Origin: an uncultured Candidatus Saccharibacteria bacterium
GTDB taxonomy: Bacteria; Patescibacteriota; Saccharimonadia; Saccharimonadales; JAUPVS01
Direction: 5' to 3'
NCBI GenBank assembly: GCA_964627095.1
Contig: CAZVKH010000001.1
Location: 8,451 to 72,450, forward strand
Length of the DNA: 64,000 nt
In this document: positions 851 to 57,287 of the stretch, piece by piece
How positions within the stretch are numbered: the stretch's first letter is position 1
How the letters are laid out: each line of letters opens with the position of its first letter
Position numbers and translations under genes: made by a program
The notes under the pieces: model-generated
The model's input: only the letters and a program-made list of their open reading frames with translations
What the model was told of the DNA's origin: nothing
Databases searched by the model: none

Positions 851-877
851 AAAAGACACCTTTGAAGGTGTCTTGAT
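851..877. terminator. Bidirectional hairpin (AGACACCTT-TGA-AAGGTGTCT) between murA (+) and the tRNA-His/Arg/Gly cluster (-)
   Basis: A 9-bp perfect inverted repeat sits immediately after the murA stop and 3' of tRNA-His on the other strand. Flanking A/T runs are weak. Confidence 0.45.
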
Positions 878-883
878 AATTCT

Positions 884-961
884 TGGGGCGAATGATGGGG
901 ATCGAACCCACTACCTCCGGAACCACAACCCGGCGCTCTAACCAGATGAGCTACATTCGCC
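884..961 (-). tRNA. tRNA-His (anticodon GTG) with encoded G-1 and encoded CCA
   Basis: Manual cloverleaf fold: 8-bp acceptor stem (G-1:C73), D arm GCTC/GAGC, anticodon loop TTGTGGT, T arm GTGGG-TTCGATC-CCCAT, 3' CCA. Confidence 0.85.
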
Positions 962-1011
962 TTAAACAGGGGTGATTATAGCGCATTAGCGGCATAACAA
1001 CAAGCTGTACA

Positions 1012-1088
1012 TGGTGCCCCGGGTAGGACTCGAACCTACGGCCTTGAGCTTAGAAGTCTCCTGCTCTATCCAACTGAGCTACCAGGGC
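1012..1088 (-). tRNA. tRNA-Arg (anticodon TCT); anticodon stem contains two mismatches
   Basis: Acceptor GCCCTGG/CCGGGGC, D arm GCTC-AGTTGGATA-GAGC, anticodon loop CTTCTAA (identical to the E. coli Arg-UCU loop), T arm GTAGG-TTCGAGT-CCTAC, CCA encoded. The anticodon stem GGAGA/GCTCA has G:A and A:G mismatches at its ends. Confidence 0.65.
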
Positions 1089-1096
1089 ACATATGA

Positions 1097-1171
1097 TGGT
1101 GCGGGATACCGGAGTCGAACCGGTGTCCAAAGTTTGGAAAACTTTTATATTAACCGCTATACGAATCCCGC
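1097..1171 (-). tRNA. tRNA-Gly (anticodon TCC)
   Basis: Acceptor GCGGGAT/ATCCCGC, D arm GTAT/ATAT, anticodon stem AAAGT/ACTTT with loop TTTCCAA, T arm ACCGG-TTCGACT-CCGGT, CCA encoded. Confidence 0.85.
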
Positions 1172-1200
1172 CTAATCAGGGCTATTATACCAGAGATGAA

Positions 1201-3627
1201 CTAACCTCGCTCGTCGAGCGTAGCTAACAATTCGGGGGCATCCAGCAACAGTACCTGCCCTGGGCTGGCCGTACCGGCTAGCAGCCGTTGCGCCACGACG
1301 TTTTCTACCGACCGCTGCACAACTCGGCGCAAGGGTCGGGCACCCAAACGGGGGTCATAACCTTTGTCTACAAGTAGCGCCTTGGCGGCATCGGTCAGGC
1401 TAACCGAAATTTTACGGCTTGCCAGAGTCTTATTAATACTGCCCATTAACAGGTCGACCACTTGCATCAGTTCTGGCTTAGTAAGTGGACGGAATAATAT
1501 AATCTCATCAAAACGGTTAATGAACTCAGGACGGAAGACGTTAGCATTGATAAGCTCGTTGACCAGCTCGTCTTCGAACTGCTCGAGCTGCTGGCCCTGG
1601 TCTATGCGCGCCCGAATATTCTCGGCGCCGGCGTTACTGGTGGCAATAATAATTGAGTCTCTAAAACTGATCGGTTTATTCTGTGAATCACGCAACATAC
1701 CTTCGTCGAGTAATTGCAGAAGCAGGTTCAGTACGTTGGGGTGGGCCTTTTCAATTTCATCAAATAAGACCACACTAAAGGGTTGTTTGGCAATTTGGGC
1801 ACATAGACTATAGGGGTCGGTGGCGCCGGTCGCCAGCAATCGGTTGGTGTCGTCGGGGTGCGAAAACTCATTAAGGTCAATTCGCACAATGCGGTCTTGA
1901 CCACCAAAATAGACATCGGCTAACGCCTTAGAAAGCTCGGTTTTTCCAACCCCGGTTGGGCCCAAGAACAAGAAAGTACCAATCGGCTTCTTTTCGTTAC
2001 CAACGCCAGTGCGGGCGCGTCTTAAAGCATCGCTCACCAGCTTAACGGCGCGCGTTTGGTTGATCATTCGTTGGTGAATCTTGGCCTCTAAGTTCAAAAG
2101 GGTATCTTTTTCTTCAAAGGTATCGGCTGTCTGGACCTTAATATCGAAGGATTTTTCGACACCCTGCTGAACTGAGCGGGCCGTAACAAAATGCTGCTGC
2201 TCCGGAAAGCCACAGGCTACATCAAGCAGCTTGAGTGCCTTACCAGGGAAGGCCTGCTCATGGATGTAGCGTTCGGCTAACTTGTAGGCCTCTTTAATGG
2301 CTTGATTCATTAGCACGACGCCATGTTTACCTTCGATAATTAATGTTTGATCTTCGATTACCTGAATAGTCTCTTCTTCGTTCAGCGGATTGACCACCAC
2401 TCGGTTTAGCGACTGGGTAAAGCCTGGGCTGGTTTGGGCAATCCTTAGCCATTCCTGATTGTCTAATGCCAATATAATCTTAAGGGCACCGCCTTCTAGA
2501 ACTGGCATCAGTACGCTGGACAAGTCCACAGAACCAGTACCTTCCCTTAGGAATAGCTGGGCTTCATCCAAGAACAAGACAACGTTCTTGGCGTGAATCG
2601 CTTCGTTAAAAATATGGATTAATAGTTCTTCAAGCTCACCCTTACCCTTGGCATTAGCGATCAGGTGTGATGCATTCAGCTCAATTACCTGCTGGTAACG
2701 CAAGTTCTGGGGAACATTTTTGGAATCTTGCAGAAGCCGCTGGGCCATGGTGTAGACCAGGGTTGTTTTTCCAACCCCAACATCACCCACCAAGACAGCG
2801 TTACGGCGACCAGGTTGAGCTAGTAAATGGATAATCTGATCAATTGTTTGGGCACGGCTATCGACTGGACGACGCAAGATGCCACCAGATTGCAAACCGT
2901 TGGTTATATTAAAGCCAACGTGGTTCAAAACTGGTGCCCAACCAAAACTAAGATCGCGGCCGACACCCCCGTAATGCCGCTTTTCGCGTTGGCGGTCGCG
3001 CATCATCCGCATATGATGACGCCAACTTACACCTCCCAGCACATCGTCACTATCAAGCTGTAGCTGAGCCAGGTGATGCTCATAGTGCGGTATCGACATT
3101 ACCAACCCAGCCACCAGAACAGCCGAATCGATCCGATCACTCGAAGTTGCCCGCGCAACATTAAGAGCAGTCTGCCAAACAACCGATTCTTGGGAACTCT
3201 CGGTCGATGACAGATTCTGCAAAAACTCCGGACCAATCGCAAAACGGGACCCGTAGAAATAGGCGCCCTGTTCATTGGCGACAAGTTTAGCCAGTGCCTG
3301 CGGTGACATATTGGGCTGCATCTTGGCCAATAGGCGCCGGCTAAGGACATCACTGACATCGCTGACAGTTTCGATTGACGATATCGGCGGCAAGTCCTTA
3401 AGCTCGCCGTAGTACCAAAAAAGCGGCATGGCTAGAGTGCCACTTAGGGCAAATAGTATATGGGCAATCATCTGCTGCTCAAAAAACACCCCCCAGAACC
3501 AAAAGAATAATGACAATACCACCGCCAACCAAGTGATTAGCCGCACAGATTGGTTATCTAAAATCTTTCCAAAGCGGGCTTTGGTGGCACGTGGACTTTG
3601 CAAATTGCAGTGAATCGGTGGGTTCAT
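1201..3627 (-). CDS. Membrane-anchored Clp/Hsp100-family double AAA+ ATPase (ClpA/ClpC-like, no M-domain, no IGF/IGL ClpP loop seen)
   Basis: 808 aa. Two N-terminal hydrophobic helices, then two Clp_N-like repeats. AAA1 has Walker A GDVGVGKT and Walker B VVLFLDEA. AAA2 has GPTGVGKT, VVLFDEIEKA and sensor IIATSN. C-terminal ...GARPLRRVVQRSVENVVAQRLL is typical of the Clp D2 small domain. The ATG overlaps the stop of the upstream gene (ATGA). Confidence 0.8.
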   Translation of the reverse strand: MNPPIHCNLQSPRATKARFGKILDNQSVRLITWLAVVLSLFFWFWGVFFEQQMIAHILFALSGTLAMPLFWYYGELKDLPPISSIETVSDVSDVLSRRLLAKMQPNMSPQALAKLVANEQGAYFYGSRFAIGPEFLQNLSSTESSQESVVWQTALNVARATSSDRIDSAVLVAGLVMSIPHYEHHLAQLQLDSDDVLGGVSWRHHMRMMRDRQREKRHYGGVGRDLSFGWAPVLNHVGFNITNGLQSGGILRRPVDSRAQTIDQIIHLLAQPGRRNAVLVGDVGVGKTTLVYTMAQRLLQDSKNVPQNLRYQQVIELNASHLIANAKGKGELEELLIHIFNEAIHAKNVVLFLDEAQLFLREGTGSVDLSSVLMPVLEGGALKIILALDNQEWLRIAQTSPGFTQSLNRVVVNPLNEEETIQVIEDQTLIIEGKHGVVLMNQAIKEAYKLAERYIHEQAFPGKALKLLDVACGFPEQQHFVTARSVQQGVEKSFDIKVQTADTFEEKDTLLNLEAKIHQRMINQTRAVKLVSDALRRARTGVGNEKKPIGTFLFLGPTGVGKTELSKALADVYFGGQDRIVRIDLNEFSHPDDTNRLLATGATDPYSLCAQIAKQPFSVVLFDEIEKAHPNVLNLLLQLLDEGMLRDSQNKPISFRDSIIIATSNAGAENIRARIDQGQQLEQFEDELVNELINANVFRPEFINRFDEIILFRPLTKPELMQVVDLLMGSINKTLASRKISVSLTDAAKALLVDKGYDPRLGARPLRRVVQRSVENVVAQRLLAGTASPGQVLLLDAPELLATLDERG

Positions 3628-3998
3628 TTACCTACCCCTACTACCATCATTACCAAGCTAATCGGGAAGGCGAATGGTGCCAACGGCCACAAAGCAATAA
3701 AGATAACCCCGCTCAAAAATGCCAATAAGGCTACAAATAAACCTGTGAAGATGATGAAGCTGCGCGCAAAAAACCCGACAAAGCGTGAGATAACGTTATC
3801 CAAAAGAGCGTGCATCTGTACATCAATCGACCCACCGGCTTGGCTATAAGTTTGCTTAAAGGGCGAGAACCAAGTTTGTGCCAACGCTAAAATCGAAAAG
3901 GTTTCGTTGCACCACTTGAGCCTATCAACAATCGCTTTTTGCATCGCCCATTGCCAACCAGCACCGTACCACCAGCGGAGTCCAAGAAGAATGACCAT
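3624..3998 (-). CDS. Small integral membrane protein, translationally coupled to the Clp-like ATPase (start uncertain: GTG at 4094 or ATG at 3998/3944)
   Basis: Hydrophobic C-terminal half (…FIIFTGLFVALLAFLSGVIFIALWPLAPFAFPISLVMMVVGVGK). Its TGA stop at 3624-3626 overlaps the ATG of the ATPase at 3625-3627. The start called at 4094 is GTG and would overlap the divergent ATPase gene. Confidence 0.45.
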   Translation of the reverse strand: MVILLGLRWWYGAGWQWAMQKAIVDRLKWCNETFSILALAQTWFSPFKQTYSQAGGSIDVQMHALLDNVISRFVGFFARSFIIFTGLFVALLAFLSGVIFIALWPLAPFAFPISLVMMVVGVGK

Positions 3999-4055
3999 AA
4001 CCAGTATTGTATCAGATAGCGCCAGAGAGCACACTTCTTGATATACTATAGGAAC

Positions 4056-5894
4056 ATGAAAAAACTTATCCACTATTTCAAGACTTACAAACACTTGGGC
4101 ATCGTCATCCTAGCCATAATTATGGCCGGAGCACTCGACCTAGGTGGCTACGAACGCTATGCCAACATTGTTTTAGGCGTAACCGCTTCGTTATCGGTTA
4201 TTCCATTACTCCTAGGCATGGTTCAAGACTTACGGGACGGCCAGTACGGTGTTGATATCCTTGCCGCCACCGCCATCATTTCTTCGGTGGCTCTGGGTGA
4301 ATACTGGGCCGGTATTGTTGTCGTATTAATGTTAACTGGTGGTGAATCGCTCGAAGATTACGCCGAACACCGGGCTAAGACCGAACTCGATGCCTTGCTC
4401 AGCCGAGCACCAAAGAAAGCTCACATTCTAAAAGGCAATAAGGTTACTGATGTGCTGGCCAGCAAGGTTCAGACCAACGACAAGCTTATTATTAAGCCCG
4501 GTGAGTTGGTGCCAGTCGATGCCGTTGTCATCGAAGGTCATGCCAGTCTTGACGAATCTAGCCTAACCGGTGAAAGCTTGCCGGTCGAAAAACACGCTGG
4601 CGATGAGCTACTCAGTGGTTCGGTTAACCTGGATGGCGTTCTGACCGTTAAAGCACTGCGACCGGCCGCCGACAGTCAGTACGAACAAATCATTAAGCTG
4701 GTGCGCGGTGCAGCCAGTAACCAATCACCATTTGTACGCCTGGCCGATAAATATAGTATTCCCTTCACGATTGTTGCCTACACCATCGCTATTAGCGTCT
4801 GGGTGGCTTCAGGTGACCCAATTAGATTTTTGCAAGTAATTATTGTCGCCACCCCTTGCCCACTATTACTAGCGGCGCCAATCGCATTAATATCCGGAAT
4901 GAGCCGAGCAGCGCGTCACGGTATTATAATTAAAACTGGCTCGGCCTTAGAAAAACTGGCTCAAGTAAAAACTATTGCCCTCGACAAAACCGGTACGTTA
5001 ACGGTAGGTAAGCCAGTTGTTGGTTCGATCAAGACTTTCAATAAACATAGTCAAAATAGTGTCCTGTCAGCAGCGGCCAGCCTTGAACAGGATTCAAACC
5101 ACATTTTAGCCAAGGCCGTTGTTGCCAAAGCCAACCAGGCAAACATTAAGACCTCTAAGGTAAAGAGCCTGCGTGAAGAAGCTGGTTACGGGTTAAGCGG
5201 CCTGGTTAACCGACAGCCTGTTTTAGTTGGCAATGCCTCACTCTTGCTTAAGCACGACGTTGACCTACCCAAGAAACTCCAAGACATGGCGGCCACAACC
5301 GCCTTTGTCGCCATAGACGGCGTCCTGGCTGGTACAATTGAATTTACCGATGAAGTCCGCCCGGAGTCTAAGTCAACGCTTCAGAGGCTCCGTGATGCCG
5401 GTGTACAGCACATTCTTATGATCACCGGCGATAACGTTGCAAGCGCCAAAGCAATTGCCAAAAAAGTTGGCATAAAAGATGTTCGAGCCAACTGCTTACC
5501 AGCCGACAAATTAACTGCTGTCGAAAATATTACCAACCGACCAGTTGCTTTTGTGGGTGATGGCGTTAACGACGCACCAGTTCTGACAGCCTCGGATGTT
5601 GGCATTGCTCTGGGTGCACGTGGCTCAGCGGCGGCCAGTGAATCAGCTGATGTAGTAATTATGCTCGACGACTTTGGTCGAGTCGCCACATCTGTAGAAA
5701 TCGCCAAGCGCACCTTCTTTATTGCTAAGCAAAGTATCCTGATTGGCATTTTTATTAGCGTCGGCTTAATGTTAATTTTTGCCACCGGTAAATTTAAGCC
5801 TATTTATGGTGCTGCTCTGCAAGAAGTCGTTGACGTGGCGGTTATCTTTAATGCCTTACGTGCCCACGGTTCTTGGCGCAAAAAAACTAGCTAG
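4056..5894 (+). CDS. P1B-type heavy-metal-translocating P-type ATPase lacking an N-terminal metal-binding domain
   Basis: Motifs TGES (actuator), TPCPLL (TM6 PCP/CPx-like), DKTGTLT (phosphorylation site), GDGVNDAP (hinge), SNHILA (HP-like). The ORF-track start at 4038 is TTG. ATG at 4056 is preceded by TAGGAA. Confidence 0.8.
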   Translation: MKKLIHYFKTYKHLGIVILAIIMAGALDLGGYERYANIVLGVTASLSVIPLLLGMVQDLRDGQYGVDILAATAIISSVALGEYWAGIVVVLMLTGGESLEDYAEHRAKTELDALLSRAPKKAHILKGNKVTDVLASKVQTNDKLIIKPGELVPVDAVVIEGHASLDESSLTGESLPVEKHAGDELLSGSVNLDGVLTVKALRPAADSQYEQIIKLVRGAASNQSPFVRLADKYSIPFTIVAYTIAISVWVASGDPIRFLQVIIVATPCPLLLAAPIALISGMSRAARHGIIIKTGSALEKLAQVKTIALDKTGTLTVGKPVVGSIKTFNKHSQNSVLSAAASLEQDSNHILAKAVVAKANQANIKTSKVKSLREEAGYGLSGLVNRQPVLVGNASLLLKHDVDLPKKLQDMAATTAFVAIDGVLAGTIEFTDEVRPESKSTLQRLRDAGVQHILMITGDNVASAKAIAKKVGIKDVRANCLPADKLTAVENITNRPVAFVGDGVNDAPVLTASDVGIALGARGSAAASESADVVIMLDDFGRVATSVEIAKRTFFIAKQSILIGIFISVGLMLIFATGKFKPIYGAALQEVVDVAVIFNALRAHGSWRKKTS

Positions 5895-6541
5895 AATAAG
5901 GCTGTCTGTAAAACTACAGTAATAAGCAGGGGTACAAACAAGTTGTCGGTTCCAGCTACGGCTAGATTCTCTATAGCGGTGGCGGCCAAGGGTAGCCAGA
6001 TAAGTAAAGGCACAAGTGGCCAGGTCAAAACAGTCCCGCTAAGTATCACTGTGCCGGTTACTATAGTTAACGATAACGTAAAGAACATCAAGGTCCCGAC
6101 CAATGTCTTGGTGTAGTTACGAATACTGTATTTATGGATAATCCCGTACTTGGTGCCTACTATCGCTGCCAGACCATCAGCCAGAGACAGATGTAAAATG
6201 GCGGCTGTAAAGACTATTGGTTCTGGTGTTAACAGAGCCGTGACGCCTATTCCAATTGGAAAAAACAACTCTCCCCAGGTGCGACGATTAACGCTGTGAA
6301 CAGCATGAAAAATATGCTGTTGCATCGATATTATAATGACAGCCAAAAAGGCCAGGCTCATAAACTCTATTTCGCGCCAGGTTAAAAAATATGGCCAAAA
6401 GGCCACAAAGGTACCAACACCAATATGCACAAACTTGCGCGCCGACTCACCGCGCATAACTTTTAGGCGCCACAGTAGCTCAGAAACTGCCAGTATCGTA
6501 AACACCCCAGTTAAAGCTAACAGGAGTGGCACGTACTGCAT
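5891..6541 (-). CDS. Polytopic membrane protein, polyprenol/dolichol-kinase (CTP-dependent, CdsA-like/DUF92) family candidate
   Basis: 216 aa, about 6 TM segments, C-terminal ...ADGLAAIVGTKYG motif reminiscent of the CTP-transferase/kinase membrane family. Last gene of the tatA-tatC operon. Confidence 0.4.
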   Translation of the reverse strand: MQYVPLLLALTGVFTILAVSELLWRLKVMRGESARKFVHIGVGTFVAFWPYFLTWREIEFMSLAFLAVIIISMQQHIFHAVHSVNRRTWGELFFPIGIGVTALLTPEPIVFTAAILHLSLADGLAAIVGTKYGIIHKYSIRNYTKTLVGTLMFFTLSLTIVTGTVILSGTVLTWPLVPLLIWLPLAATAIENLAVAGTDNLFVPLLITVVLQTALF

Positions 6542-7516
6542 CTACTTATTGGGCCTAAGATCTAGGAAGTTAGCGCTTTGTAAGTTCTGTAACTGGCGTG
6601 GTGCAATGTCGAAGGTTGGTCGCTTAACATGAGTTGCAACCGAACGTCTCTGCAAGACTGGCTCAATAAAGGCCGGGCGGGGTGCTGGCTGCGGTGACAC
6701 CTTGGGGGCCGGTGGCAACTGTGATGGGTGTTTTCGGCGCTGTTCTTTGGCAGCAGCCTGTGCAGCGGCATACTTTTTGGCCGCCTTGGCCCGGCGATTT
6801 GCTTTTCGGTTAGCTAGATACACAAAGAATACCGACAAGTTATACAGCAGTATTATCGGTAGAGCGATTAGGAATTGCGTTAGTGGGTCGTAGGTAAATG
6901 GCAAAACCAGGGCCAGGGCCAAACTGCCGACAATAACGTGGCGCTCGTACTTAAGCAGCTTGCGCGGTGACATCGGCTTGATGTGGTTGATGAACAAAAT
7001 AAGCAAAGGCAACTGGAACAGTAATATAAACGTCAGTATGCAAGCCAGTGCGAAGTTAAGGTAGTCGTCGGCTGATATAAGCGGATTAACACCTGTGATT
7101 TCGACACCCTGAAAGAAATGCAAGGACATTGGTAAGGCGCCAAAATATGCAAAGGCGGCGCCGGCTACTCCTAGGGTCAAGGAAAGAAGCGTCACCATGG
7201 TAATAAGGCGGCGGGTGATTTTTTTACCAACAGCTGGTTCAATAAACGATATTATATTGTAGATTAGAGCCGGTATAGCCAGGGTTATGCCCAGGATAAA
7301 GCAGATCTTCATAATAAAGTTGAACCCACCAGCCGGCGTGGTGTAGTAAAGCTGCTGGTTGAGCGGGGCCGTCATAAAGACGATTAGCTGATCATGAAAC
7401 ATATAGGCCACACCGGCACCCACTAGCAATAGCAATGCTGGCCAGGTCAGCCGGCGACGCAGTTCCTGGACATGTCCAGAAAAAGTTAGCTTTGGTTCCA
7501 TGATCTGCCCATCCAT
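6542..7516 (-). CDS. tatC: Sec-independent protein translocase TatC (with basic/Pro-rich C-terminal tail)
   Basis: N-terminal LTFSGHVQELRRRL motif, six predicted TM helices, TatC-like topology. Confidence 0.85.
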   Translation of the reverse strand: MDGQIMEPKLTFSGHVQELRRRLTWPALLLLVGAGVAYMFHDQLIVFMTAPLNQQLYYTTPAGGFNFIMKICFILGITLAIPALIYNIISFIEPAVGKKITRRLITMVTLLSLTLGVAGAAFAYFGALPMSLHFFQGVEITGVNPLISADDYLNFALACILTFILLFQLPLLILFINHIKPMSPRKLLKYERHVIVGSLALALVLPFTYDPLTQFLIALPIILLYNLSVFFVYLANRKANRRAKAAKKYAAAQAAAKEQRRKHPSQLPPAPKVSPQPAPRPAFIEPVLQRRSVATHVKRPTFDIAPRQLQNLQSANFLDLRPNK

Positions 7517-10063: not shown

Positions 10064-11614
10064 ATGAAGCAACAATCAATTGCAGCCATTAAACGGTATC
10101 GCACCAGACGACTGGCTAGCCTGGCAACCCGCTGTTACTATCTGCATAAACGTGGTAAAGACGAACAAATGGCCACCCTGCTCTGCGACGAACTGGTTGA
10201 TTTGGGCGGTGTTTATATTAAGTTCCTTCAGGGTGTATTGTTGCGTAGTAAGTTTTTACGCAAGTGGCAGAACCCGGACCGCTTAAAAATCTTCGAAAAT
10301 CTAGAAAGTGAGCCACTCGACATCGTCGCAGTACTGCGCCACGAGCTAAAGCCGGCTCAGTTAGAACAAATAACCATGGTTCAGCCGCAACCATTTGCGG
10401 CCGGTAGTTTTGGCCAGGTCTACTATGCCCAACTACACAATGGGCAACCGGTCATTATTAAGGTGTTACGCCCAATGGTCCGTGAACTCTTACGCTATGA
10501 CCTACGCCTACTATCGACCTTTAGCAAAAGCTTCTTTACCAAACTGTACAAGAACATGAATCTACAGGTTGATGAGGCTCTGAAAGAATTCCGTGAAGCC
10601 ACCCTGCGTGAAACCGACTACAAACACGAGGCCGGTTTTGCCGATGAGATGTACCGGGCCTACAAAGACAACCCCAAGATGGTGATTCCGCAAACCTATC
10701 TTGATCTGTGTACCGACAATATCATCGTCCAAGATTTTGTACCCGGGATATCGGTTGCTCAAGTCATTAAGCTCAAGGAACAGGGAGTGGACCCAGTCGA
10801 TTACGTTAAAGAGACGCTTGGCTCTGACTTAGACCTGCAATTGAGTACCTTGGGCTACGAATCAATTATGGGCATTTTCCACTTAGAACGCATCCAAGGA
10901 GACCCCCACCCTGGCAATATCCGTTTAATGGATGATGACCGTGTTGGCTTAATTGACTTCGGCATTAGTGCCAAGGCACCACCCGAAAAGGCCGCCTTCT
11001 TTGGTATGCTGCAGGCTTATGACCGCCTATTCAAAGGCTCACAGACGGCTGTTAATTTATTCGAGCAAGGTTTGCGCTTTTTTGTTAGTGACCTATACCG
11101 GGCCCTAAAGAAACTGGCTTCTATCTACGGCAAGGGTGATGACAAAGACTACTTAAGTGAAGTCAGCGGTATTGCCGCAAAGGCCTTTGCCGAGGTTACC
11201 GGGTCGGACATTATCGAGGCTAACTTTACCCAAGACAACTCGGCAATGGCAGTAATTAACCGGCTGGTAAATAAGGGAAATCGCTTTGGGCTGGTGATGC
11301 GCTTAGATGCCAGCGATATCTTACGGGCCGTTCAGACCTATACATCATTAGTTGGTAGCTTGGGACGCTATCAGCAAGTTGTGCCGCCCATTATGGACCG
11401 CGTGGTAACTGATGTACAAAAGCTCTACCCAGAAACAATTTCTGACAGCGATGACCAAATTTCGGTTGATGACGCGATTGATATAATTATGAAGTGGCTA
11501 GAGCGCGTCGCCGAACGCGACCCAGCCCTATTCCGTCAGTTAATGAGCAAAATTAAGACGGGCGGCCAAAAGGTTGTGCCCAAAGTAAAGAAAGAAGGAC
11601 CAGCCCATGCTTAA
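10064..11614 (+). CDS. ubiB: UbiB/ABC1 (ADCK)-family atypical protein kinase
   Basis: Glycine loop FAAGSFGQVY, catalytic GDPHPGNIRL and DFG-like IDFG motifs, 516 aa. Confidence 0.8.
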   Translation: MKQQSIAAIKRYRTRRLASLATRCYYLHKRGKDEQMATLLCDELVDLGGVYIKFLQGVLLRSKFLRKWQNPDRLKIFENLESEPLDIVAVLRHELKPAQLEQITMVQPQPFAAGSFGQVYYAQLHNGQPVIIKVLRPMVRELLRYDLRLLSTFSKSFFTKLYKNMNLQVDEALKEFREATLRETDYKHEAGFADEMYRAYKDNPKMVIPQTYLDLCTDNIIVQDFVPGISVAQVIKLKEQGVDPVDYVKETLGSDLDLQLSTLGYESIMGIFHLERIQGDPHPGNIRLMDDDRVGLIDFGISAKAPPEKAAFFGMLQAYDRLFKGSQTAVNLFEQGLRFFVSDLYRALKKLASIYGKGDDKDYLSEVSGIAAKAFAEVTGSDIIEANFTQDNSAMAVINRLVNKGNRFGLVMRLDASDILRAVQTYTSLVGSLGRYQQVVPPIMDRVVTDVQKLYPETISDSDDQISVDDAIDIIMKWLERVAERDPALFRQLMSKIKTGGQKVVPKVKKEGPAHA

Positions 11615-31286: not shown

Positions 31287-31601
31287 TCATGCCAACTCCT
31301 GTTCTAGCCAAGTCTGAGCATCTTTTGATAACTTAGTGACAGGAATCGATTGAAGGACAAACGTGTCATAACTATGCAACTTGGCAACTTCTCTTTCGAC
31401 CTTTTCAAACAGATCCTCGCGCGAGTCCATCACCAATAGAGTTTCGTGGTTATTGGCTTTTTCGCCCTTCCAAAGAAAGTGAGAATCTACCGAAACCTGC
31501 TTGGCGCAAGCTACCAACTTTAGGTCAAGTAAGGATTGAGATATCAAGTCAGCCTCAGCTCGATCTTTACAGGTTAACCAAAGTTGGCAAAAGCCTGGCA
31601 T
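31287..31601 (-). CDS. cutA: CutA1 divalent-cation tolerance protein, inserted between dnaK and dnaJ
   Basis: 104 aa, …LKLVACAKQV…SHFLWKGE…ETLLVMDS…HSYDTFVLQSIPV… CutA family pattern. Confidence 0.65.
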   Translation of the reverse strand: MPGFCQLWLTCKDRAEADLISQSLLDLKLVACAKQVSVDSHFLWKGEKANNHETLLVMDSREDLFEKVEREVAKLHSYDTFVLQSIPVTKLSKDAQTWLEQELA

Positions 31602-33520
31602 TATTTTTTCTTCTTGTCTTCTTTTTCGTCGTCGACGACTTCGCCTTCGACTGGTTCGTCTTTGTCGGACTTCTTGTCACCGTCTTCGGCTGGGGCTTCT
31701 TCTTTGGCAGCTTCTTCATAAAGCTTGGCGCCAATTGGCATAGTCTTGTCGGTTAGCTCCTTGGCAGCGGCTTCTAGGGCATCTTTGTCGGCCTTGTCGT
31801 CAGCTACAACTTTTTTAGCATCTTCAACGGCTTCTTCGATTACCTTCTTGTCGTCATCGCTAATCTTGTCTTTATTGTCGGCAATCATCTTCTCGGCCTG
31901 ATAGACAGAACTGTCTAGGGTATTGCGGGCATCAATTGCTTCGCGCTTTTTCTTGTCCTCTTCGGCATGAGCTTCGGCTTCTTTAGCCATTTTTTCGACT
32001 TCTTCTTTAGAAAGGCCCGAGCTGTTTTGGATAGTAATACTCTGTTCCTTACCCGAACCCTTGTCCTTGGCCGAGACATTCAAGATACCGTTGGCATCCA
32101 AGTTAAAAGTAACTTCAATCTGGGGAACACCGCGGGGGGCCGATGGAATACCATCGAGCACAAAACGTCCGAGTGACTTGTTGTCGGCGACCATTTCACG
32201 CTCACCTTGGACAACGTGGATTTCTACTTGTGGTTGGTTGTCGGCAGCAGTACTAAAGGTTTCGGACTTGCTGGTTGGAATTGTCGTGTTACGTTCAATC
32301 AGTTTAGTCGCGACGCCACCAAGCGTTTCGATACCAAGACTAAGTGGTGTTACGTCTAGCAAAAGCACGTCTTTAACGTCACCCTGCAAGACACCACCTT
32401 GAATGGCGGCACCAATGGCCACAACTTCGTCGGGGTTAACACCCTTCATTGGTTCTTTGCCAAAGATGTTCTTAACCTTTTCTTGAACGGCCGGCATACG
32501 GGTCATACCACCAACCAGAACAATGGCATCGATGTCACTGGCTTTTAGGCCAGCGTCTTTAAGGGCCTTTTCGCAAGGAATAGCTGTTTTGTCGATTAGC
32601 TCGCCAACCAAGCTTTCCAACTTAGAGCGAGTCAGCTTGTGCTCAAAGTGCTTAGGACCATCGGCGTCGGCTGTTAAGAATGGCAGGTTAATGTTGATTT
32701 CGTTAGTGGTACTAAGCTCGATCTTGGCCTTTTCGGCTTCGTCACGCAGACGCTGCATAGCAGCTTTGTCGTCGGTAATGTCTAGGCCGTGTTCTTTTTT
32801 GAACTCGTCGGCAAAGTAGTTTACTAAAACGCGGTCGAAGTCGGCACCACCTAGGTGAGTGTCACCATTGGTGGACTTAACTTCAAAGACACCGTCACCC
32901 AGTTCCAAAATGGAAACATCGAAGGTACCACCACCAAGGTCGTAAACGGCAATTTTTTCGTCTTTCTTACTGCCCTTGTCCAAACCGTAGGCTAAAGCCG
33001 CGGCAGTTGGTTCGTTGATAATACGCTTGACTTCTAAGCCGGCAATTTTACCAGCATCTTTAGTAGCTTGGCGCTGTGAGTCATCAAAGTAAGCCGGTAC
33101 GGTAATAACAGCCTCGGTAACGCTGTCGCCCAAAAAGCTTTCGGCGTCAGTTTTAAGCTTGCCCAAGATCATGGCACTAACTTCTTCGGGGCTGTATTCT
33201 TTGTCGCCCATCTTTACCTTAACGCCGTTACCAGACTTAACCATCTCGTAACCCATTAGCTTGATGTCGCGCTGAACTTCTTTGTCGTTCCAGTTGCGAC
33301 CAATTAGGCGCTTTACTTCGTAAATTGTATTGCCGGGGTTAGTAACTTGCTGGCGGCGAGCTACCTGGCCGACTAATCTTTCGCCATTTTTATTGACGGC
33401 GACGACTGACGGCGTGGTGCGCGCACCTTCTGAGTTAGCAATAATTTCTGGCTTACCAGCCTGCATAACAGCCATGGCTGAGTTAGTTGTTCCTAGGTCG
33501 ATTCCGATGATTTTTCCCAT
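31601..33520 (-). CDS. dnaK: Chaperone DnaK (Hsp70)
   Basis: [18 protein letters not shown]…, 639 aa, acidic C-terminal tail. Confidence 0.97.
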
Positions 33521-35570: not shown

Positions 35571-36020
35571 ATGAAAGCACTGAACTTCAGTTTACAAGAT
35601 CAAGACGACCAGACACATTCTTTACAAGATTACCGCGGCCAGTGGGTGGTGATTTATTTCTACCCCAAGGATGACACGCCGGGTTGCACCACCGAAGCTT
35701 GCAGTTTTCGGGATGAATACGATTACATCAAAGAGCATGGCGCCGTGGTATTCGGCATCAGCAAAGACAGCGTCGCCAGCCACAAAAAGTTTGCCACAAA
35801 ATACAACCTACATTTTCCGCTACTTAGCGACGAGTCACTAGATACCATCAAGGCCTACGGTGCTTATGGCGAGCGGAGCATGTACGGCAAAAAGTACATG
35901 GGCATTATCCGCTCCACCTTCTTGATTAACCCAGATGGCGAGATCGTTAAAGAGTACCCTAAGGTAACTCCCAAGGATCATGCTGTTCAGATCGTAAAAG
36001 ACTTAGTCGCGCTTCAGTAA
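35571..36020 (+). CDS. bcp: Peroxiredoxin Bcp (AhpC/TSA family thiol peroxidase)
   Basis: …VVIYFYPKDDTPGCTTEACSFRD… ATG at 35571 with AAGGGG Shine-Dalgarno. Confidence 0.8.
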   Translation: MKALNFSLQDQDDQTHSLQDYRGQWVVIYFYPKDDTPGCTTEACSFRDEYDYIKEHGAVVFGISKDSVASHKKFATKYNLHFPLLSDESLDTIKAYGAYGERSMYGKKYMGIIRSTFLINPDGEIVKEYPKVTPKDHAVQIVKDLVALQ

Positions 36021-37784
36021 AACAGTGAAGGCTTCGGCCGGGATATCAACTTTACCAAAGCGTTTCATGCGCTTCTTTCCCTTAGCCTGTTTGGCCAGCA
36101 CCTTCTTTTTGCGCGATACGTCACCGCCATACAAACCAGTCGTGACGTCTTTACGGAAGGCGCTGATGTCTTCGCGGGCGATAAACTTACCGCCAATAGC
36201 AGCCTGCAAGGCCACCTGAAAGTTCTGGCGCGGGATAACTTCTTTAAGCTTTTCAACAACTTCCCGACCCAGTCGCTGGGCTTCGCTGCGGTGCACCATA
36301 ATACTTAGGGCGCTGACAATTTCGTTGGCAACATAAAAGTCCAGTCGTACCAGATCTTCGGCCCGGTAGTTGTCTAGCTCGTAGCTAAACGAACCGTAGC
36401 CACTGGTAACGCTCTTGAGCTGATCATAAAAGTCGGTTAGTAGGTTCGCCAAAGGTGCCTCGAATGACACCAATGCCAACTGGGCATCAACGAATGACAG
36501 ATTCTTTTGCTGACCGCGCTTACTAACAATCAGCTGGATAACGGCACCGACATAGTCTTTAGGCACGACAATCTCACCCTTAATCCAAGGTTCGCGAATT
36601 TCGGCTATCTTGGCGGGATCTGGTAAGTCGGCGGCGCTTTTTATACTTAATTCTTCGTCATTTAACAGGGTTATCTGGTAGTCGGTCGAGGGATTGGTTA
36701 CTACCAAGTCAAGATTGTACTCACGCTCCAGGCGTTCGCGCACAATATCCATGTGTAGCAGGCCCAAAAAGCCAACGCGCACGCCAAAACCCAACACCGG
36801 TGAGTTTTCGAGCTCGAACTGCAAGGCCGAGTCACTTAAACTTAGCTTTTCAATGGCATCTTTGAGCTCTTGGTAGTATTCGTTCGACTCGGGAAAGAAA
36901 CCAGCATACACAAACGGCTTAACGTCTTTATAGCCAGGCAACGATTGTTCGGCCGGACGTTTAGTTAGCGTAACGGTATCACCAACGCGGGCTTCACGCG
37001 TGCTCTTGAGGTTGGTAACGATGTAGCCAATCTCGCCGACTTCGAGCTGCTTATTGGGAGTCATCCCTGGAGTTAGAGCGCCGACTTCGAGGGCAATGCC
37101 TTCAGCGCCGGTGGCCATCATGGTAATTGGGGCGTTCTTAGCAACGTCGCCGTCGACTAGACGAACATACAAGATGACACCGCGGTAGTCATCGTAGTAG
37201 CTATCAAAAATTAAGGCCCGGGTGGAGTCGGTCATGCCGCCGACGGGTGCCGGTACTTCTTCGATAACCTTTTGTAAAACGGCTTCGACACCTTGGCCGG
37301 TTTTGGCCGAAATATGCAAAATCTCTTCGGCTGTGCAGCCCAATAGCGCAATAACTTCGGCGCTCACCCGATCCACGTCAGCCGCTGGTAGATCAATTTT
37401 GTTAAGTACCGGGATAATCTTGAGGTCGGCCGCCATAGCCAAATAGACGTTGGCCAGTGTTTGCGCCTGGATACCCTGGCTAGCATCAACCACCAGAATC
37501 GCCCCTTCGCAGGCTTCGAGGCTGCGCGAAACTTCGTAACTAAAGTCAACGTGCCCAGGAGTGTCGATGAGGTTAAGCTGGTAGCCCTGATAGTTCATCC
37601 GCACTGGGGCCAGCTTAATGGTAATACCCTTTTCTCTTTCTAGGTCCATCTTATCGAGTAACTGGGCTTTCATAGCCCGCTTCTCGACCGTTCCGGTCAA
37701 TTCCAATAGACGATCGGCCAAGGTCGATTTACCGTGGTCAATATGGGCAATTATGCAAAAGTTTCTAATCTGTTCTTGATCCAT
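36003..37784 (-). CDS. lepA: Elongation factor 4 (LepA)
   Basis: IRNFCIIAHIDHGKSTLADRLL…, C-terminal LepA-specific domain. Confidence 0.95.
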   Translation of the reverse strand: MDQEQIRNFCIIAHIDHGKSTLADRLLELTGTVEKRAMKAQLLDKMDLEREKGITIKLAPVRMNYQGYQLNLIDTPGHVDFSYEVSRSLEACEGAILVVDASQGIQAQTLANVYLAMAADLKIIPVLNKIDLPAADVDRVSAEVIALLGCTAEEILHISAKTGQGVEAVLQKVIEEVPAPVGGMTDSTRALIFDSYYDDYRGVILYVRLVDGDVAKNAPITMMATGAEGIALEVGALTPGMTPNKQLEVGEIGYIVTNLKSTREARVGDTVTLTKRPAEQSLPGYKDVKPFVYAGFFPESNEYYQELKDAIEKLSLSDSALQFELENSPVLGFGVRVGFLGLLHMDIVRERLEREYNLDLVVTNPSTDYQITLLNDEELSIKSAADLPDPAKIAEIREPWIKGEIVVPKDYVGAVIQLIVSKRGQQKNLSFVDAQLALVSFEAPLANLLTDFYDQLKSVTSGYGSFSYELDNYRAEDLVRLDFYVANEIVSALSIMVHRSEAQRLGREVVEKLKEVIPRQNFQVALQAAIGGKFIAREDISAFRKDVTTGLYGGDVSRKKKVLAKQAKGKKRMKRFGKVDIPAEAFTVLLKRD

Positions 37785-53868: not shown

Positions 53869-53943
53869 TTGGTAGCGGGGGCAGGACTCGAACCTGCGAC
53901 CTCGTGGTTATGAGCCACGCGAGCTGCCACTGCTCCACCCCGC
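53869..53943 (-). tRNA. Initiator tRNA-fMet (anticodon CAT)
   Basis: 5' CGCGGGGTGGAGCAG identical to E. coli tRNA-fMet. C1 is unpaired with T72. Anticodon loop CTCATAA. CCA encoded. Confidence 0.85.
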
Positions 53944-54024
53944 GTCGAGTTGAGCAAGCTATAGCATACCAGATGAAAGCTACTTATACAACATCGGTGG
54001 GAAATGTGGTAGAGTATCTTCACT

Positions 54025-55034: not shown

Positions 55035-55111
55035 GGCGGCGTAGCTCAGTTGGTTAGAGCACAGGACTCATAAGCCTGGGGTCACAAGTTCAAATCTTGT
55101 CGCCGCTACCA
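55035..55111 (+). tRNA. Elongator tRNA-Met (anticodon CAT)
   Basis: Closely resembles E. coli elongator tRNA-Met (…GTTGGTTAGAGCAC…CTCATAA…GGGGTCACAAGTTCAAATC…). CCA encoded. One A:G mismatch at 31:39. Confidence 0.75.
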
Positions 55112-57211: not shown

Positions 57212-57287
57212 GGGGGTGTAGCTCATCGGTCAGAGCAGGCGGCTCATAACCGCTTGGTAGATGGTTCAACTCCATCCACCCCCACCA
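57212..57287 (+). tRNA. tRNA-Ile2 (anticodon CAT, lysidine-modified type)
   Basis: Anticodon arm GGCGG-CTCATAA-CCGCT-TGGTA closely matches E. coli tRNA-Ile2 (GGCGA-CTCATAA-TCGCT-TGGTC). tilS is present in the window. Confidence 0.7.

What the first reader, a model, noticed from the sequence alone, without database searches (positions are those of the whole stretch)
1201..3998. Membrane-anchored Clp/Hsp100 double-AAA+ ATPase translationally coupled to a small membrane protein
- The 808-aa protein has the ClpA/ClpC domain order: Clp_N repeats, AAA1, AAA2, D2 small domain.
- It starts with two hydrophobic helices.
- It lacks both a ClpB-type middle domain and any IGF/IGL ClpP-docking loop that I can find.
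- Its ATG overlaps the TGA of an upstream 125-156-aa integral membrane protein (ATGA), so the two are co-translated.
- The tRNA-His/Arg/Gly cluster follows 29 nt downstream.
- Soluble Clp ATPases are universal, but a membrane-tethered Hsp100 paired with a membrane partner is not a standard architecture. It could act as a membrane-protein disaggregase or extractor, in parallel with the FtsH also encoded here.
Basis: partly seen in the sequence, partly recalled or inferred. Interest (0 to 1): 0.6.

Follow-up and report, generated by a model that had tools for sequence, protein, structure and literature searches.

The report
Membrane-anchored Hsp100 ATPase with small partner
Saccharibacteria carry a conserved, uncharacterised two-gene unit: a Clp/Hsp100-type double-ring ATPase anchored in the membrane that has lost the usual substrate-gripping tyrosines, always paired with a 124-residue membrane protein, so it probably works differently from ClpB, ClpC or ClpA.

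Summary
On the minus strand, a 124-aa two-TM protein (3624-3998) overlaps by ATGA an 808-aa Clp/Hsp100-like protein (1201-3627). tRNA-Gly/Arg/His follow 29 nt downstream.

- **Missing parts:** no M-domain and no ClpP-docking loop.
- **Gene pair:** present, adjacent and co-oriented in 65 of 65 assessable Saccharibacteria genome loci. The stop and start codons overlap in 60 of them. No other neighbour is conserved.

- The D1 pore-loop tyrosine is absent in 60/60 members.
- The D2 pore loop is 5 residues shorter and lacks GYVG.
- D1 catalytic residues decay across the family, while all D2 motifs are invariant.

In Southlakia epibionticum the apparent orthologous pair (SEML1_0701/0700) coexists with a canonical ClpC and ClpP. 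Both genes get the same Tn-seq calls (NE, NE, GD).

Best reading: a lineage-specific, ClpP-independent, D2-driven membrane complex that remodels clients without classical aromatic-paddle threading. The client is unknown. The "extractor/disaggregase" idea is only partly supported. I rate it a new variant of a known kind.

The parts
3624..3998 (-). Small partner gene, 124 aa. It has a Trp-rich cytoplasmic N-region (invariant W9 W10 Y11 G14 W15, F34, T42, P46, D67, S71, R72, G75, R79). Two C-terminal TM helices (about 80-100 and 105-122) are joined by a tight W104-P105-x-x-P108 turn.
   Evidence: ORF and homologue lengths. Alignment A2 invariants. Hydropathy 2.6/2.1 and K/R-rich N-region in all relatives. 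AF2 model pLDDT 83, all-helical. No Pfam, NCBIfam or PADLOC hit.
3624..3627 (-). ATGA stop/start overlap: the TGA of the small gene and the ATG of the Clp-like gene. A GGGGTAGG Shine-Dalgarno-like run sits just upstream, inside the small gene.
   Evidence: Sequence. The same 4-nt overlap occurs in 45/65 loci, a 1-nt overlap in 9, other overlaps of 8-13 nt in 6, and gaps of 0-12 nt in 4.
1201..3627 (-). 808-aa Clp/Hsp100-like double-AAA+ ATPase (whole gene).
3541..3627 (-). Basic cytoplasmic N-tail, residues 1-29, with the conserved S-x-R-A-x-K-A-R motif (R13, K16, A17 and R29 invariant).
   Evidence: AF2 places a helix at 12-22.
3409..3540 (-). Membrane helical hairpin, residues 30-73: TM1 30-50, loop E-Q-Q, TM2 53-73. 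It ends in the invariant juxtamembrane W71-Y72-x-G74-E75-L76.
   Evidence: Hydropathy. Kept in 65/65 relatives, with both peaks above 1.4 in 56. AF2 helices 26-50 and 53-76 at pLDDT about 90.
2974..3375 (-). N-domain, residues 85-218. Eight helices with the Clp_N fold, highly diverged in sequence.
2932..2970 (-). Family signature GG(I/V)GRDLSFGWAP, residues 220-232, between the N-domain and D1. It is the most conserved stretch of the N-terminal region and has no counterpart in ClpA, ClpB or ClpC.
   Evidence: Invariant columns G220 G221 G223 R224 D225 G229 W230 P232. The pattern retrieved 67 loci, all labelled Saccharibacteria or unclassified Patescibacteria, from 185,579 species genomes.
2107..2820 (-). 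D1 AAA+ module plus lid, residues 270-507. Walker A is GDVGVGKT (2764-2787) and Walker B is FLDEAQ (2557-2574). There is no M-domain insertion.
   Evidence: Across the family, Walker A K->R occurs in 18/60 and Walker B E->N/D in 39/60. The sensor-1 position is not conserved and only one of the two Arg-finger arginines is kept.
2635..2658 (-). D1 pore loop ANAKGKGE, aligned to ClpB AGAKYRGE. The tyrosine is replaced by glycine.
   Evidence: HMMER alignment to 1qvr and 3j3t. No aromatic residue at this column in 60/60 members.
1252..1989 (-). D2 AAA+ module plus D2-small, residues 547-792. It contains Walker A GPTGVGKT (1939-1962), Walker B LFDEIE (1750-1767), sensor-1 TSN, Arg finger NRFDE and sensor-2 GARPLRR.
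   Evidence: All these motifs are invariant or nearly so in 60 members.
1804..1833 (-). Shortened D2 pore loop ATGATDPYSL. It replaces ClpB GAPPGYVGYEEGGQL, is five residues shorter and lacks GYVG.
   Evidence: Alignment gap and residue count from the sequence. Y606 is present in only 25/60 members; the others have N, L, M, H, R, E and so on.
4045..4072 (-). Promoter-like site TGGATA-16-TATAGT, 46 nt upstream of the small gene's ATG. Consensus match only.
884..1171 (-). tRNA-Gly(TCC), tRNA-Arg(TCT) and tRNA-His(GTG) cluster downstream. Syntenic context, probably with its own extended -10 (TGGTATAAT) in the 29-nt spacer at 1172-1200.

Best explanation
The two genes encode the subunits of a Saccharibacteria-specific, membrane-embedded Hsp100-type ATPase complex.

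**Large subunit.** It is a diverged paralogue of the ClpB/ClpC lineage. An N-in/C-in helical hairpin holds its Clp_N-fold N-domain, and so the entry face of the presumed hexamer, against the cytoplasmic side of the membrane.

**Small subunit.** The 124-aa protein is made in step with the large one through the overlapping stop/start. It contributes a second helical hairpin and a Trp-rich cytoplasmic segment of about 78 residues. This segment is the likely adaptor or anchoring partner.

**Motor.** D2 is the working ATPase. D1 is on the way to becoming a nucleotide-binding, assembly or regulatory ring.

**What it is not coupled to.** The enzyme does not feed ClpP, because it has no docking loop. 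It is not driven by DnaK through an M-domain, because it has none.

**How it grips.** It lacks the aromatic pore-loop paddles of both rings. It therefore most likely remodels or dislodges a membrane-proximal client by ATP-driven conformational change with non-canonical grip, not by processive polypeptide threading. This is closer in logic to Torsin with its membrane cofactors.

**Shown versus inferred.** Shown here: the anatomy, the conservation of the pair, the motif states and the fold of the N-domain. Inferred: hexamer formation, physical contact of the two proteins, topology, and the nature of the client, which is unknown.
For: - **Domain map and absences:**
- **N-domain fold:**
- **Membrane hairpin:** the hairpin and positive-inside tail are kept from 84% down to about 25% N-terminal identity in 65 genomes.
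- **Pair conservation:** the small gene lies directly upstream on the same strand in 65/65 assessable loci. The stop and start overlap in 60/65.
- **Remote relatives:** the most distant small-protein relatives are also followed by an 802-805-aa double-AAA+ protein, with a 4- or 1-nt overlap.
- **Neighbourhood:** no third gene is conserved; the next most frequent neighbour is in 23/65 loci.
- **Motifs:** D2 motifs are invariant, D1 Walker A/B and sensor-1 erode, and the pore-loop aromatics are lost.
- **Family restriction:** an N-terminal profile finds only 244 clusters among 1.84 billion representatives. The full-length proteins among the 150 hits listed are about 777-840 aa.
- **Independent genetics (PMC10633639, Tables S1 and S2):** S. 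epibionticum SEML1_0700 has the same Pfam coordinates and no Clp_N hit. The 127-aa SEML1_0701 sits upstream of it. Both are called NE, NE, GD at successive passages. A canonical ClpC (SEML1_0512: two Clp_N, UVR) and ClpP (SEML1_0493) exist elsewhere in that genome.
Against: - No direct evidence shows that the two proteins bind each other, that a hexamer forms, or that the helices span the bilayer. TM2 is only moderately hydrophobic (1.65).
- In the query's own subclade, D1 Walker A/B are intact and a tyrosine (Y606) sits at the base of the shortened D2 loop. Threading may survive there.
- Orthology of SEML1_0700/0701 rests on domain coordinates, size and gene order. I did not see the sequences.
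- The growth-defect call is mild and appears only at the last passage.
- A loss of pore-loop tyrosine does not by itself prove loss of translocation.
Confidence: 0.55

Rival explanations
1. One reading: a membrane-protein extractor or disaggregase. A hexamer docked under the membrane pulls misfolded or mislocalised membrane proteins through its central pore, like FtsH or Msp1 without a protease. It then releases them for refolding or for degradation by FtsH or ClpXP/ClpCP.
For: - The entry (N-domain) face is tethered to the membrane, the geometry an extractor needs.
- D2 is a fully equipped motor.
- The query subclade keeps D1 Walker A/B and has Y606 next to the D2 loop.
- The N-domain keeps the Clp_N fold used for substrate or adaptor binding in relatives.
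- The mild fitness defect of the mutants fits a quality-control role.
Against: - No aromatic residue in the D1 pore loop in 60/60 members.
- GYVG is deleted from D2, and the residual loop is not conserved. It is acidic in the host-associated clades.
- D1 catalysis decays across the family.
- There is no linkage to FtsH or other proteases in 65 loci.
Confidence: 0.25
2. A motor or gate of a membrane conduit. The 12 TM helices of a hexamer, plus up to 12 from the partner, form a ring in the bilayer coaxial with the ATPase. The complex would move a folded protein or a non-protein cargo across or into the membrane, by analogy with Bcs1 or with HSP101 on the PTEX pore.
For: - Two hairpin-type membrane subunits in apparently fixed stoichiometry, with almost no extracytoplasmic loops.
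- Non-aromatic, lineage-variable pore lining.
- The family is restricted to an epibiotic lineage that depends on exchange with a host.
Against: - No pore-forming features or conserved polar residues within the TM helices were identified.
- No conserved cargo or secretion genes lie nearby.
- The mutants are viable.
- The model is purely geometric speculation.
Confidence: 0.1
3. The small protein is a regulator or dedicated client, such as an inhibitor or membrane tether that controls when the ATPase is active. It would not be a structural subunit.
For: - Strict co-occurrence and coupling.
- The small protein's conserved cytoplasmic face.
- Identical Tn-seq calls for the two genes.
Against: - The ATPase has its own membrane anchor, so a tether is redundant.
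- Coupled translation suggests fixed stoichiometry more than regulation.
- An inhibitor would be expected to give the opposite phenotype to the ATPase, not the same one.
Confidence: 0.07
4. It is an ordinary soluble ClpC/ClpB orthologue. The N-terminal hydrophobic stretch would be an annotation artefact from a wrong start codon, and the neighbour would be incidental.
For: Database names call the relatives 'ClpC'.
Against: - The N-terminus is conserved from residue 1 across the family.
- Scores are far below every NCBIfam Clp equivalog cut-off, for example ClpB 426 against 1232.
- A canonical ClpC coexists in S. epibionticum.
- The neighbour is present in 65/65 loci.
Confidence: 0.03

Closest known systems
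ClpB/Hsp104 disaggregases (closest by sequence: T. thermophilus ClpB 1qvr, E 5e-112)
   Same: - Two AAA+ modules plus D2-small.
- D2 aligns without gaps through the region where ClpA and ClpC carry the ClpP loop.
- N-domain of Clp_N fold.
- All D2 catalytic motifs are present.
   Different: - No M-domain, which is the DnaK-coupling element that defines ClpB.
- N-terminal membrane hairpin.
- Both pore-loop tyrosines are lost.
- D1 is much more diverged (105 bits) than D2 (276 bits).
- TIGR03346 scores 426 against a cut-off of 1232.
ClpC / ClpA (ClpP-coupled unfoldases)
   Same: - Collinear N-D1-D2 order. ClpA also lacks an M-domain, and the TIGR02639 match runs as one stretch over residues 142-791.
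- Source databases name the relatives ClpC.
   Different: - No IGF/IGL/VGF docking loop.
- No UVR or short M-domain.
- No sequence-detectable Clp_N.
- Membrane anchored.
- Below the family cut-offs.
- A true ClpC coexists in at least one Saccharibacterium.
Torsin ATPases with LAP1/LULL1 (eukaryotic ER and nuclear envelope)
   Same: - A Clp D2-related AAA+ protein that lacks aromatic pore-loop residues.
- Membrane-associated through an N-terminal hydrophobic segment.
- Works with transmembrane partner proteins.

These Torsin properties are from established knowledge and PMC5425593 / PMC4358337. Both papers appeared in searches but I did not read them in full.
   Different: - Torsin has a single ring and lacks its own Arg finger, which the cofactor supplies. 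Here the D2 Arg finger is intact.
- The partner here is only 124 aa and cannot be an AAA-like fold.
- The catalytic domain is cytoplasmic, not luminal.
- There is no evidence of common descent of the arrangement.
FtsH, Msp1/ATAD1 and Bcs1 (membrane-anchored AAA+ machines)
   Same: An N-terminal TM anchor places the ring's entry face at the membrane.
   Different: - These are single-ring proteins of the classical AAA clade. FtsH and Msp1 have aromatic pore loops.
- FtsH carries a protease domain.
- None has a Clp_N domain or a D2-small domain.
Plasmodium HSP101 in the PTEX translocon
   Same: - A class-I Hsp100 working at a membrane with dedicated membrane partners.
   Different: - HSP101 is not itself membrane-anchored.
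- It keeps its pore-loop tyrosines and M-domain.
- It docks through its D2 face.

Membership tests
Class-I Clp/Hsp100 (double-ring AAA+) | Two tandem AAA+ modules followed by a D2-small domain | tested here: met
   Pfam AAA 278-382, AAA_lid_9 417-507, AAA_2 547-709 and ClpB_D2-small 715-792. PDB matches to ClpB, ClpC and ClpA run over both modules.
Class-I Clp/Hsp100 (double-ring AAA+) | N-terminal Clp_N domain | tested here: inconclusive
Class-I Clp/Hsp100 (double-ring AAA+) | Conserved aromatic pore-loop residues in D1 (KYR) and D2 (GYVG) | tested here: not met
   D1 reads K-G-K-G, with no aromatic residue in 60/60 members. The D2 loop is 5 residues shorter and GYVG is absent.
ClpB/Hsp104 | Coiled-coil M-domain inserted in the D1 small domain | tested here: not met
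   Query residues 475-506 span what is 392-545 in 1qvr. AAA_lid_9 matches contiguously.
ClpB/Hsp104 | Score above the NCBIfam equivalog cut-off (TIGR03346, 1232 bits) | tested here: not met
   426 bits.
ClpA/ClpC/ClpE/ClpX-type ClpP partners | IGF/IGL/VGF ClpP-docking loop in the last AAA+ module | tested here: not met
   The ClpC VGF segment aligns to gaps. No [ILVM]G[FLM] tripeptide occurs in D2.
ClpA/ClpC/ClpE/ClpX-type ClpP partners | Score above the NCBIfam ClpA cut-offs (TIGR02639 at 993 bits, NF008263 at 1350 bits) | tested here: not met
   372 and 288 bits.
ClpV/TssH (type VI secretion) | TIGR03345 cut-off of 885 bits, plus T6SS gene context | tested here: not met
   313 bits. No conserved neighbours besides the small gene.
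ClpG/ClpK stand-alone disaggregases | NF033607 and NF033606 cut-off of 1900 bits | tested here: not met
   325 and 330 bits.
Anti-phage defence AAA+ systems (PADLOC) | Whole-protein match of both genes to a defence-system model | tested here: not met
   Only partial D2 matches (DolB, 104 bits over residues 486-672). The small protein has no hit. The pair is syntenic and lineage-wide.
Torsin-like (works-like comparison only) | Arg finger missing from the ATPase and supplied by the membrane cofactor | tested here: not met
   The D2 Arg finger NRFDE is invariant. The partner is 124 aa and all-helical.
Membrane-anchored protein (integral hairpin) | Experimentally or algorithmically verified transmembrane topology | tested here: inconclusive
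   Hydropathy, the positive-inside rule and conservation support an N-in/C-in hairpin. No dedicated topology predictor or experiment was available.

The most novel reading that the evidence does not exclude
The pair is the core of a new kind of membrane machine. A Hsp100 ring would have its own TM hairpins, together with those of the obligatory 124-aa partner, form a bilayer-embedded ring coaxial with a tyrosine-free, lineage-variable pore. ATP hydrolysis in D2 would move or gate something other than an unfolded polypeptide. Candidates are a folded protein, a lipid-linked envelope precursor or a host-derived molecule. The function would be tied to the epibiotic, auxotrophic lifestyle of Saccharibacteria.
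Probability: 0.1. Interest if true: 0.9.

Novelty: new variant of a known kind. Interest (0 to 1): 0.6.

Why it matters
Hsp100 proteins are textbook soluble threading machines, defined by pore-loop tyrosines and by coupling to either ClpP or Hsp70. This is a lineage-wide, apparently undescribed branch that is built into the membrane. It always comes with a dedicated small membrane subunit, and it has discarded the tyrosines of both rings while keeping a pristine D2 motor.

- It offers a natural test of what an Hsp100 ring can do without aromatic paddles.
- It is a bacterial counterpart to the unsolved Torsin problem.
- It lies in Saccharibacteria, a large and poorly understood radiation whose conserved 'hypothetical' genes are the main obstacle to understanding their biology.
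- S. epibionticum is genetically tractable and both genes tolerate insertions, so the system is directly testable.

Tried and rejected
- **Family libraries for the small protein:** Pfam, NCBIfam and PADLOC gave nothing.
- **Foldseek against afdb50:** the library was unavailable.
- **Profile of residues 1-262 against PDB sequences:** zero hits at E<=10.
- **Profile search of the small-protein family in 5.8 billion proteins:** 1019 hits. All 120 listed are about 118-135 aa, and the few that carry a name are 'hypothetical' and from Saccharibacteria. No link to a named family.
- **Literature searches:** searches for a membrane-anchored Hsp100 or for this family in Saccharibacteria or Patescibacteria found no description. 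The TM7x transcriptome papers call TM7x_03020 'clpB' in the text but 'hypothetical protein' in the table. I could not verify that it is the orthologue.
- **Defence-system or mobile-element origin:** rejected, because the pair is syntenic and present lineage-wide.
- **Wrong-start artefact:** rejected, because the N-terminus is conserved.
- **tRNA cluster as part of the operon:** considered, but the 29-nt spacer holds an extended -10 (TGGTATAAT), so the tRNAs probably have their own promoter.
- **Inter-protein covariation:** not attempted. About 67 pairs are too few.


Full report
**1. What is in the sequence**

On the minus strand, an 808-aa ORF (1201..3627) is preceded by a small ORF ending at 3624.
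- The mechanical ORF for the small gene is 156 aa from a GTG at 4094. That extension would run into the divergent P-type ATPase gene (4038..5894).
- Every homologue is about 115-131 aa, mostly 124-125. The real start is therefore ATG 3998, giving 124 aa.
- The two genes share ATGA at 3624-3627, read as ...GGT AAA TGA / ATG AAC CCA.
- tRNA-Gly(TCC), tRNA-Arg(TCT) and tRNA-His(GTG) follow on the same strand after a 29-nt spacer.

The one qualification concerns the Clp_N repeats (section 2).

**2. Anatomy of the large protein**

Pfam finds AAA (278-382), AAA_lid_9 (417-507), AAA_2 (547-709) and ClpB_D2-small (715-792), but no Clp_N.

NCBIfam equivalogs all match far below their cut-offs:

| Family | Score (bits) | Cut-off (bits) |
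|---|---|---|
| ClpB | 426 | 1232 |
| ClpA | 372 | 993 |
| ClpK | 330 | 1900 |
| ClpG | 325 | 1900 |
| ClpV | 313 | 885 |

The best solved relatives are T. thermophilus ClpB (E 5e-112) and B. subtilis ClpC. D2 scores 276 bits and D1 only 105 bits.

The alignments show three absences.
- **No M-domain.** Query residues 475-506 bridge what is 392-545 in ClpB, and the lid domain matches contiguously.
- **No ClpP loop.** The ClpC 'kyVGFnvq' segment faces gaps. The only [ILVM]G[FLM] tripeptide in the protein is V237-G-F, in the N-D1 linker at the position of the canonical YGxDLT motif.
- **No pore-loop tyrosines** (section 5).

The N-terminal 262 residues have no sequence or profile relative in the PDB, even at E<=10. 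An AlphaFold2 model built on 22 family members is confident, with mean pLDDT 82 and about 90 over residues 10-210. It shows:
- a short helix at 12-22;
- two long helices at 26-50 and 53-76;
- an eight-helix bundle at 97-218.

**3. The membrane anchor**

- Residues 30-48 have a 19-residue Kyte-Doolittle mean of 2.14, and residues 53-71 a mean of 1.65. A three-residue loop (E-Q-Q) separates them.
- The preceding 29 residues carry 5 K/R against 1 D/E.
- I reconstructed the orthologue from 65 genome loci, spanning 84% down to about 25% N-terminal identity. The same plan is present in every one: a basic tail with an S-x-R-A-x-K-A-R motif, a strongly hydrophobic helix, a tight turn, and a second hydrophobic helix ending in W-Y-x-G-E-L. 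Both peaks exceed 1.4 in 56 of the 65.

A cleaved signal peptide is not credible. The n-region is 29 residues and the h-region 21, and a second hydrophobic helix follows immediately. An ATPase must also remain cytoplasmic, so either both helices cross the membrane or neither does. The consistent reading is an N-in/C-in hairpin with almost nothing exposed outside. This is inferred, not measured.

**4. The partner and the gene pair**

The small protein has the following layout.
- A Trp-rich amphipathic N-terminal helix with invariant W9 W10 Y11 G14 W15.
- A conserved T-x-F-x-P-F-K-Q segment.
- An amphipathic juxtamembrane helix with invariant D67, S71, R72, G75 and R79.
- Two very hydrophobic C-terminal helices joined by W104-P105-x-x-P108.

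Its N-region is K/R-rich in all relatives and the chain ends right after TM2. The layout is therefore again a hairpin with both ends inside. It has no Pfam, NCBIfam or PADLOC hit. A profile search returns 1019 relatives. All 120 listed are about 118-135 aa, and the few that carry a name are 'hypothetical' and from Saccharibacteria.

A scan of one genome per species (185,579 species) with the family's signature peptide returned 67 loci. All are labelled Saccharibacteria, Saccharimonadales, Nanosyncoccus or unclassified Patescibacteria.
- In 65 of them the region upstream of the ATPase is present. In all 65 a small-protein homologue lies directly upstream on the same strand (E 1e-18 to 1e-61).
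- The two remaining loci are truncated at the contig end.

The stop/start junctions break down as follows:

| Junction | Loci |
|---|---|
| ATGA-type 4-nt overlap | 45 |
| 1-nt overlap | 9 |
| Overlap of 8-13 nt | 6 |
| Gap of 0-12 nt | 4 |
| Gap of 155 nt | 1 |

The most remote small-protein homologues (34-43% identity) are also followed by an 802-805-aa double-AAA+ protein, with a 4- or 1-nt overlap. No other neighbour is conserved. The next most frequent gene is present in 23 of 65 loci.

The pair is thus an autonomous, translationally coupled two-gene unit. This is the pattern expected for subunits of one complex.

**5. State of the motor**

I aligned 60 full-length family members.

D2 is pristine:
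- Walker A GPTGVGKT;
- Walker B (L/F)DE(I/V)E;
- sensor-1 TSN;
- Arg finger NRFDE;
- sensor-2 GARP(L/M)(R/K)R.

All of these are invariant or nearly so.

D1 is eroding:
- The Walker A lysine is arginine in 18/60, in the host-associated clades.
- The Walker B glutamate is N or D in 39/60.
- The sensor-1 position is not conserved.
- Only the second arginine of the ClpB 'RR' finger pair is kept, as R in 42 and K in 16.
- The query's own clade still has GDVGVGKT and DE.

The D1 pore loop reads A-K-G-(K/R)-G where ClpB has A-K-Y-R-G. No member has an aromatic residue there.

In D2, the segment between 'RL' and the Walker B strand is 24 residues, against 29 in ClpB. 'SLCAQIAKQPFSV' anchors on ClpB 'QLTEAVRRRPYSV', so the loop 'IGAPPGYVGYEEGG' is reduced to 'LATGATDPY' and GYVG is gone.
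- The tyrosine in the query (Y606) sits just before the following helix.
- It is present in only 25/60 members.
- Others have N, L, M, H, R or E there, and the host-associated clades have an acidic loop (DGAEDEL).

In threading AAA+ enzymes the pore loops are among the most conserved elements. Their loss and variability here argue against classical processive polypeptide threading as the family's conserved mechanism.

**6. Outside evidence**

The S. epibionticum Tn-seq study (PMC10633639, Tables S1 and S2) lists SEML1_0700 as 'AAA family ATPase'.
- Its Pfam coordinates are AAA_2 544-706, D2-small 713-792, AAA 276-381 and lid 415-471. These are almost identical to mine, and it has no Clp_N hit.
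- Immediately upstream on the same strand, overlapping it, is SEML1_0701, a 127-aa hypothetical protein.
- Both genes are called NE, NE, GD at P0, P1 and P2.
- Normalised reads fall from 4124 to 2517 to 1638 for SEML1_0700, and from 258 to 157 to 51 for SEML1_0701.

The same genome has a canonical ClpC (SEML1_0512: two Clp_N, UVR, AAA_2, D2-small; NE) and ClpP (SEML1_0493; NE).

So the membrane form is an extra paralogue, not the lineage's only Hsp100. Both partners are dispensable in co-culture but share a late fitness cost. I infer orthology from architecture and gene order, because I did not see the sequences. I found no paper that describes the family.

**7. Interpretation**

Most likely (about 0.55), this is a ClpP-independent and Hsp70-independent, D2-driven Hsp100 complex built into the cytoplasmic membrane together with a stoichiometric small subunit.
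- The N-domain (entry) face is held at the membrane.
- D1 serves as a nucleotide-binding, assembly or regulatory ring.
- The complex engages its still unknown, membrane-proximal client without aromatic paddles.

Functionally this resembles Torsin with its membrane cofactors more than ClpB. It is not a member of that family: the Arg finger is intact, there are two rings, and the partner is tiny.

A conduit or gating role is possible but speculative (about 0.1). A regulator or client role for the small protein is about 0.07. A mis-annotated ordinary ClpC is excluded.

**8. Verdict**

The feature is real and conserved across the lineage, and I found no published description of it. It belongs to the Clp/Hsp100 superfamily by fold and D2 sequence. 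It fails the defining tests of ClpB, ClpA/C, ClpV and ClpG/K, and it lacks the hallmark pore loops. I rate it a new variant of a known kind, with interest 0.6.

Noticed in passing
window 1172-1200 (minus strand): The 29-nt spacer between the Clp-like stop and tRNA-Gly reads TTCATCTCTGGTATAATAGCCCTGATTAG. It contains an extended -10 (TGGTATAAT), so the tRNA cluster probably has its own promoter and need not be co-transcribed with the pair.
   Followed up: partly
window 884-1171; loci L001-L031 and others: tRNA-Gly(TCC), often followed by tRNA-Arg(TCT) and tRNA-His(GTG), sits right after the Clp-like gene on the same strand in many environmental Saccharibacteria. Host-associated clades (for example L041, L046, L048, L051, L054, L057, L059, L060, L067) instead have a convergent tRNA-Arg(TCG) there.
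   Followed up: partly
window 853-874: A perfect 9-bp hairpin, AAGACACCT-TTGA-AGGTGTCTT, has T-runs on both strands. It lies between the murA-like ORF (52-849, +) and tRNA-His, and looks like a bidirectional terminator.
   Followed up: no
window 3633-3650 and the equivalent positions in L001-L067: The conserved C-terminal G-V-G-(K/R) of the small protein is encoded by GGnGTnGGn. This doubles as the Shine-Dalgarno-like AGGAG/GGGAG for the Clp-like gene, so the peptide conservation may partly reflect a translation-initiation constraint.
   Followed up: no
loci L041-L067 (Nanosyncoccus and animal-gut or oral Saccharibacteria): In host-associated clades, D1 of the ATPase has Walker A G-S-G-R-(T/A/S) and Walker B (D/E)-N or D-D, and the D2 loop becomes acidic (DGAEDE). 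D1 inactivation therefore appears to be clade-specific and progressive.
   Followed up: partly
window 31601-33520 (-), 36003-37784 (-), 39473-41356 (-): DnaK (Hsp70, E 1e-266), LepA and FtsH (FtsH_ext, AAA, Peptidase_M41) are encoded in the same window. None is linked to the pair in other genomes.
   Followed up: partly
window 4038-5894 (+), 5891-6541 (-), 6542-7516 (-), 10064-11614 (+): A P-type (E1-E2) ATPase is transcribed divergently from the pair, with only about 40-57 nt between the starts. Next come a 216-aa polytopic membrane protein with no Pfam hit, TatC and an ABC1 atypical kinase. The first two recur next to the pair in only 19-23 of 65 loci.
   Followed up: partly
window 53870-53944 (-), 55035-55111 (+), 57212-57287 (+): Three tRNA-Met(CAT) genes lie within 3.5 kb. 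They are presumably initiator, elongator and tRNA-Ile2-type species.
   Followed up: no
PMC10633639 Table S1, SEML1_0700: The S. epibionticum gene is annotated at 2583 bp (860 aa) with the same internal domain coordinates. It therefore seems to carry a C-terminal extension of about 50 residues that is absent from the window protein.
   Followed up: no
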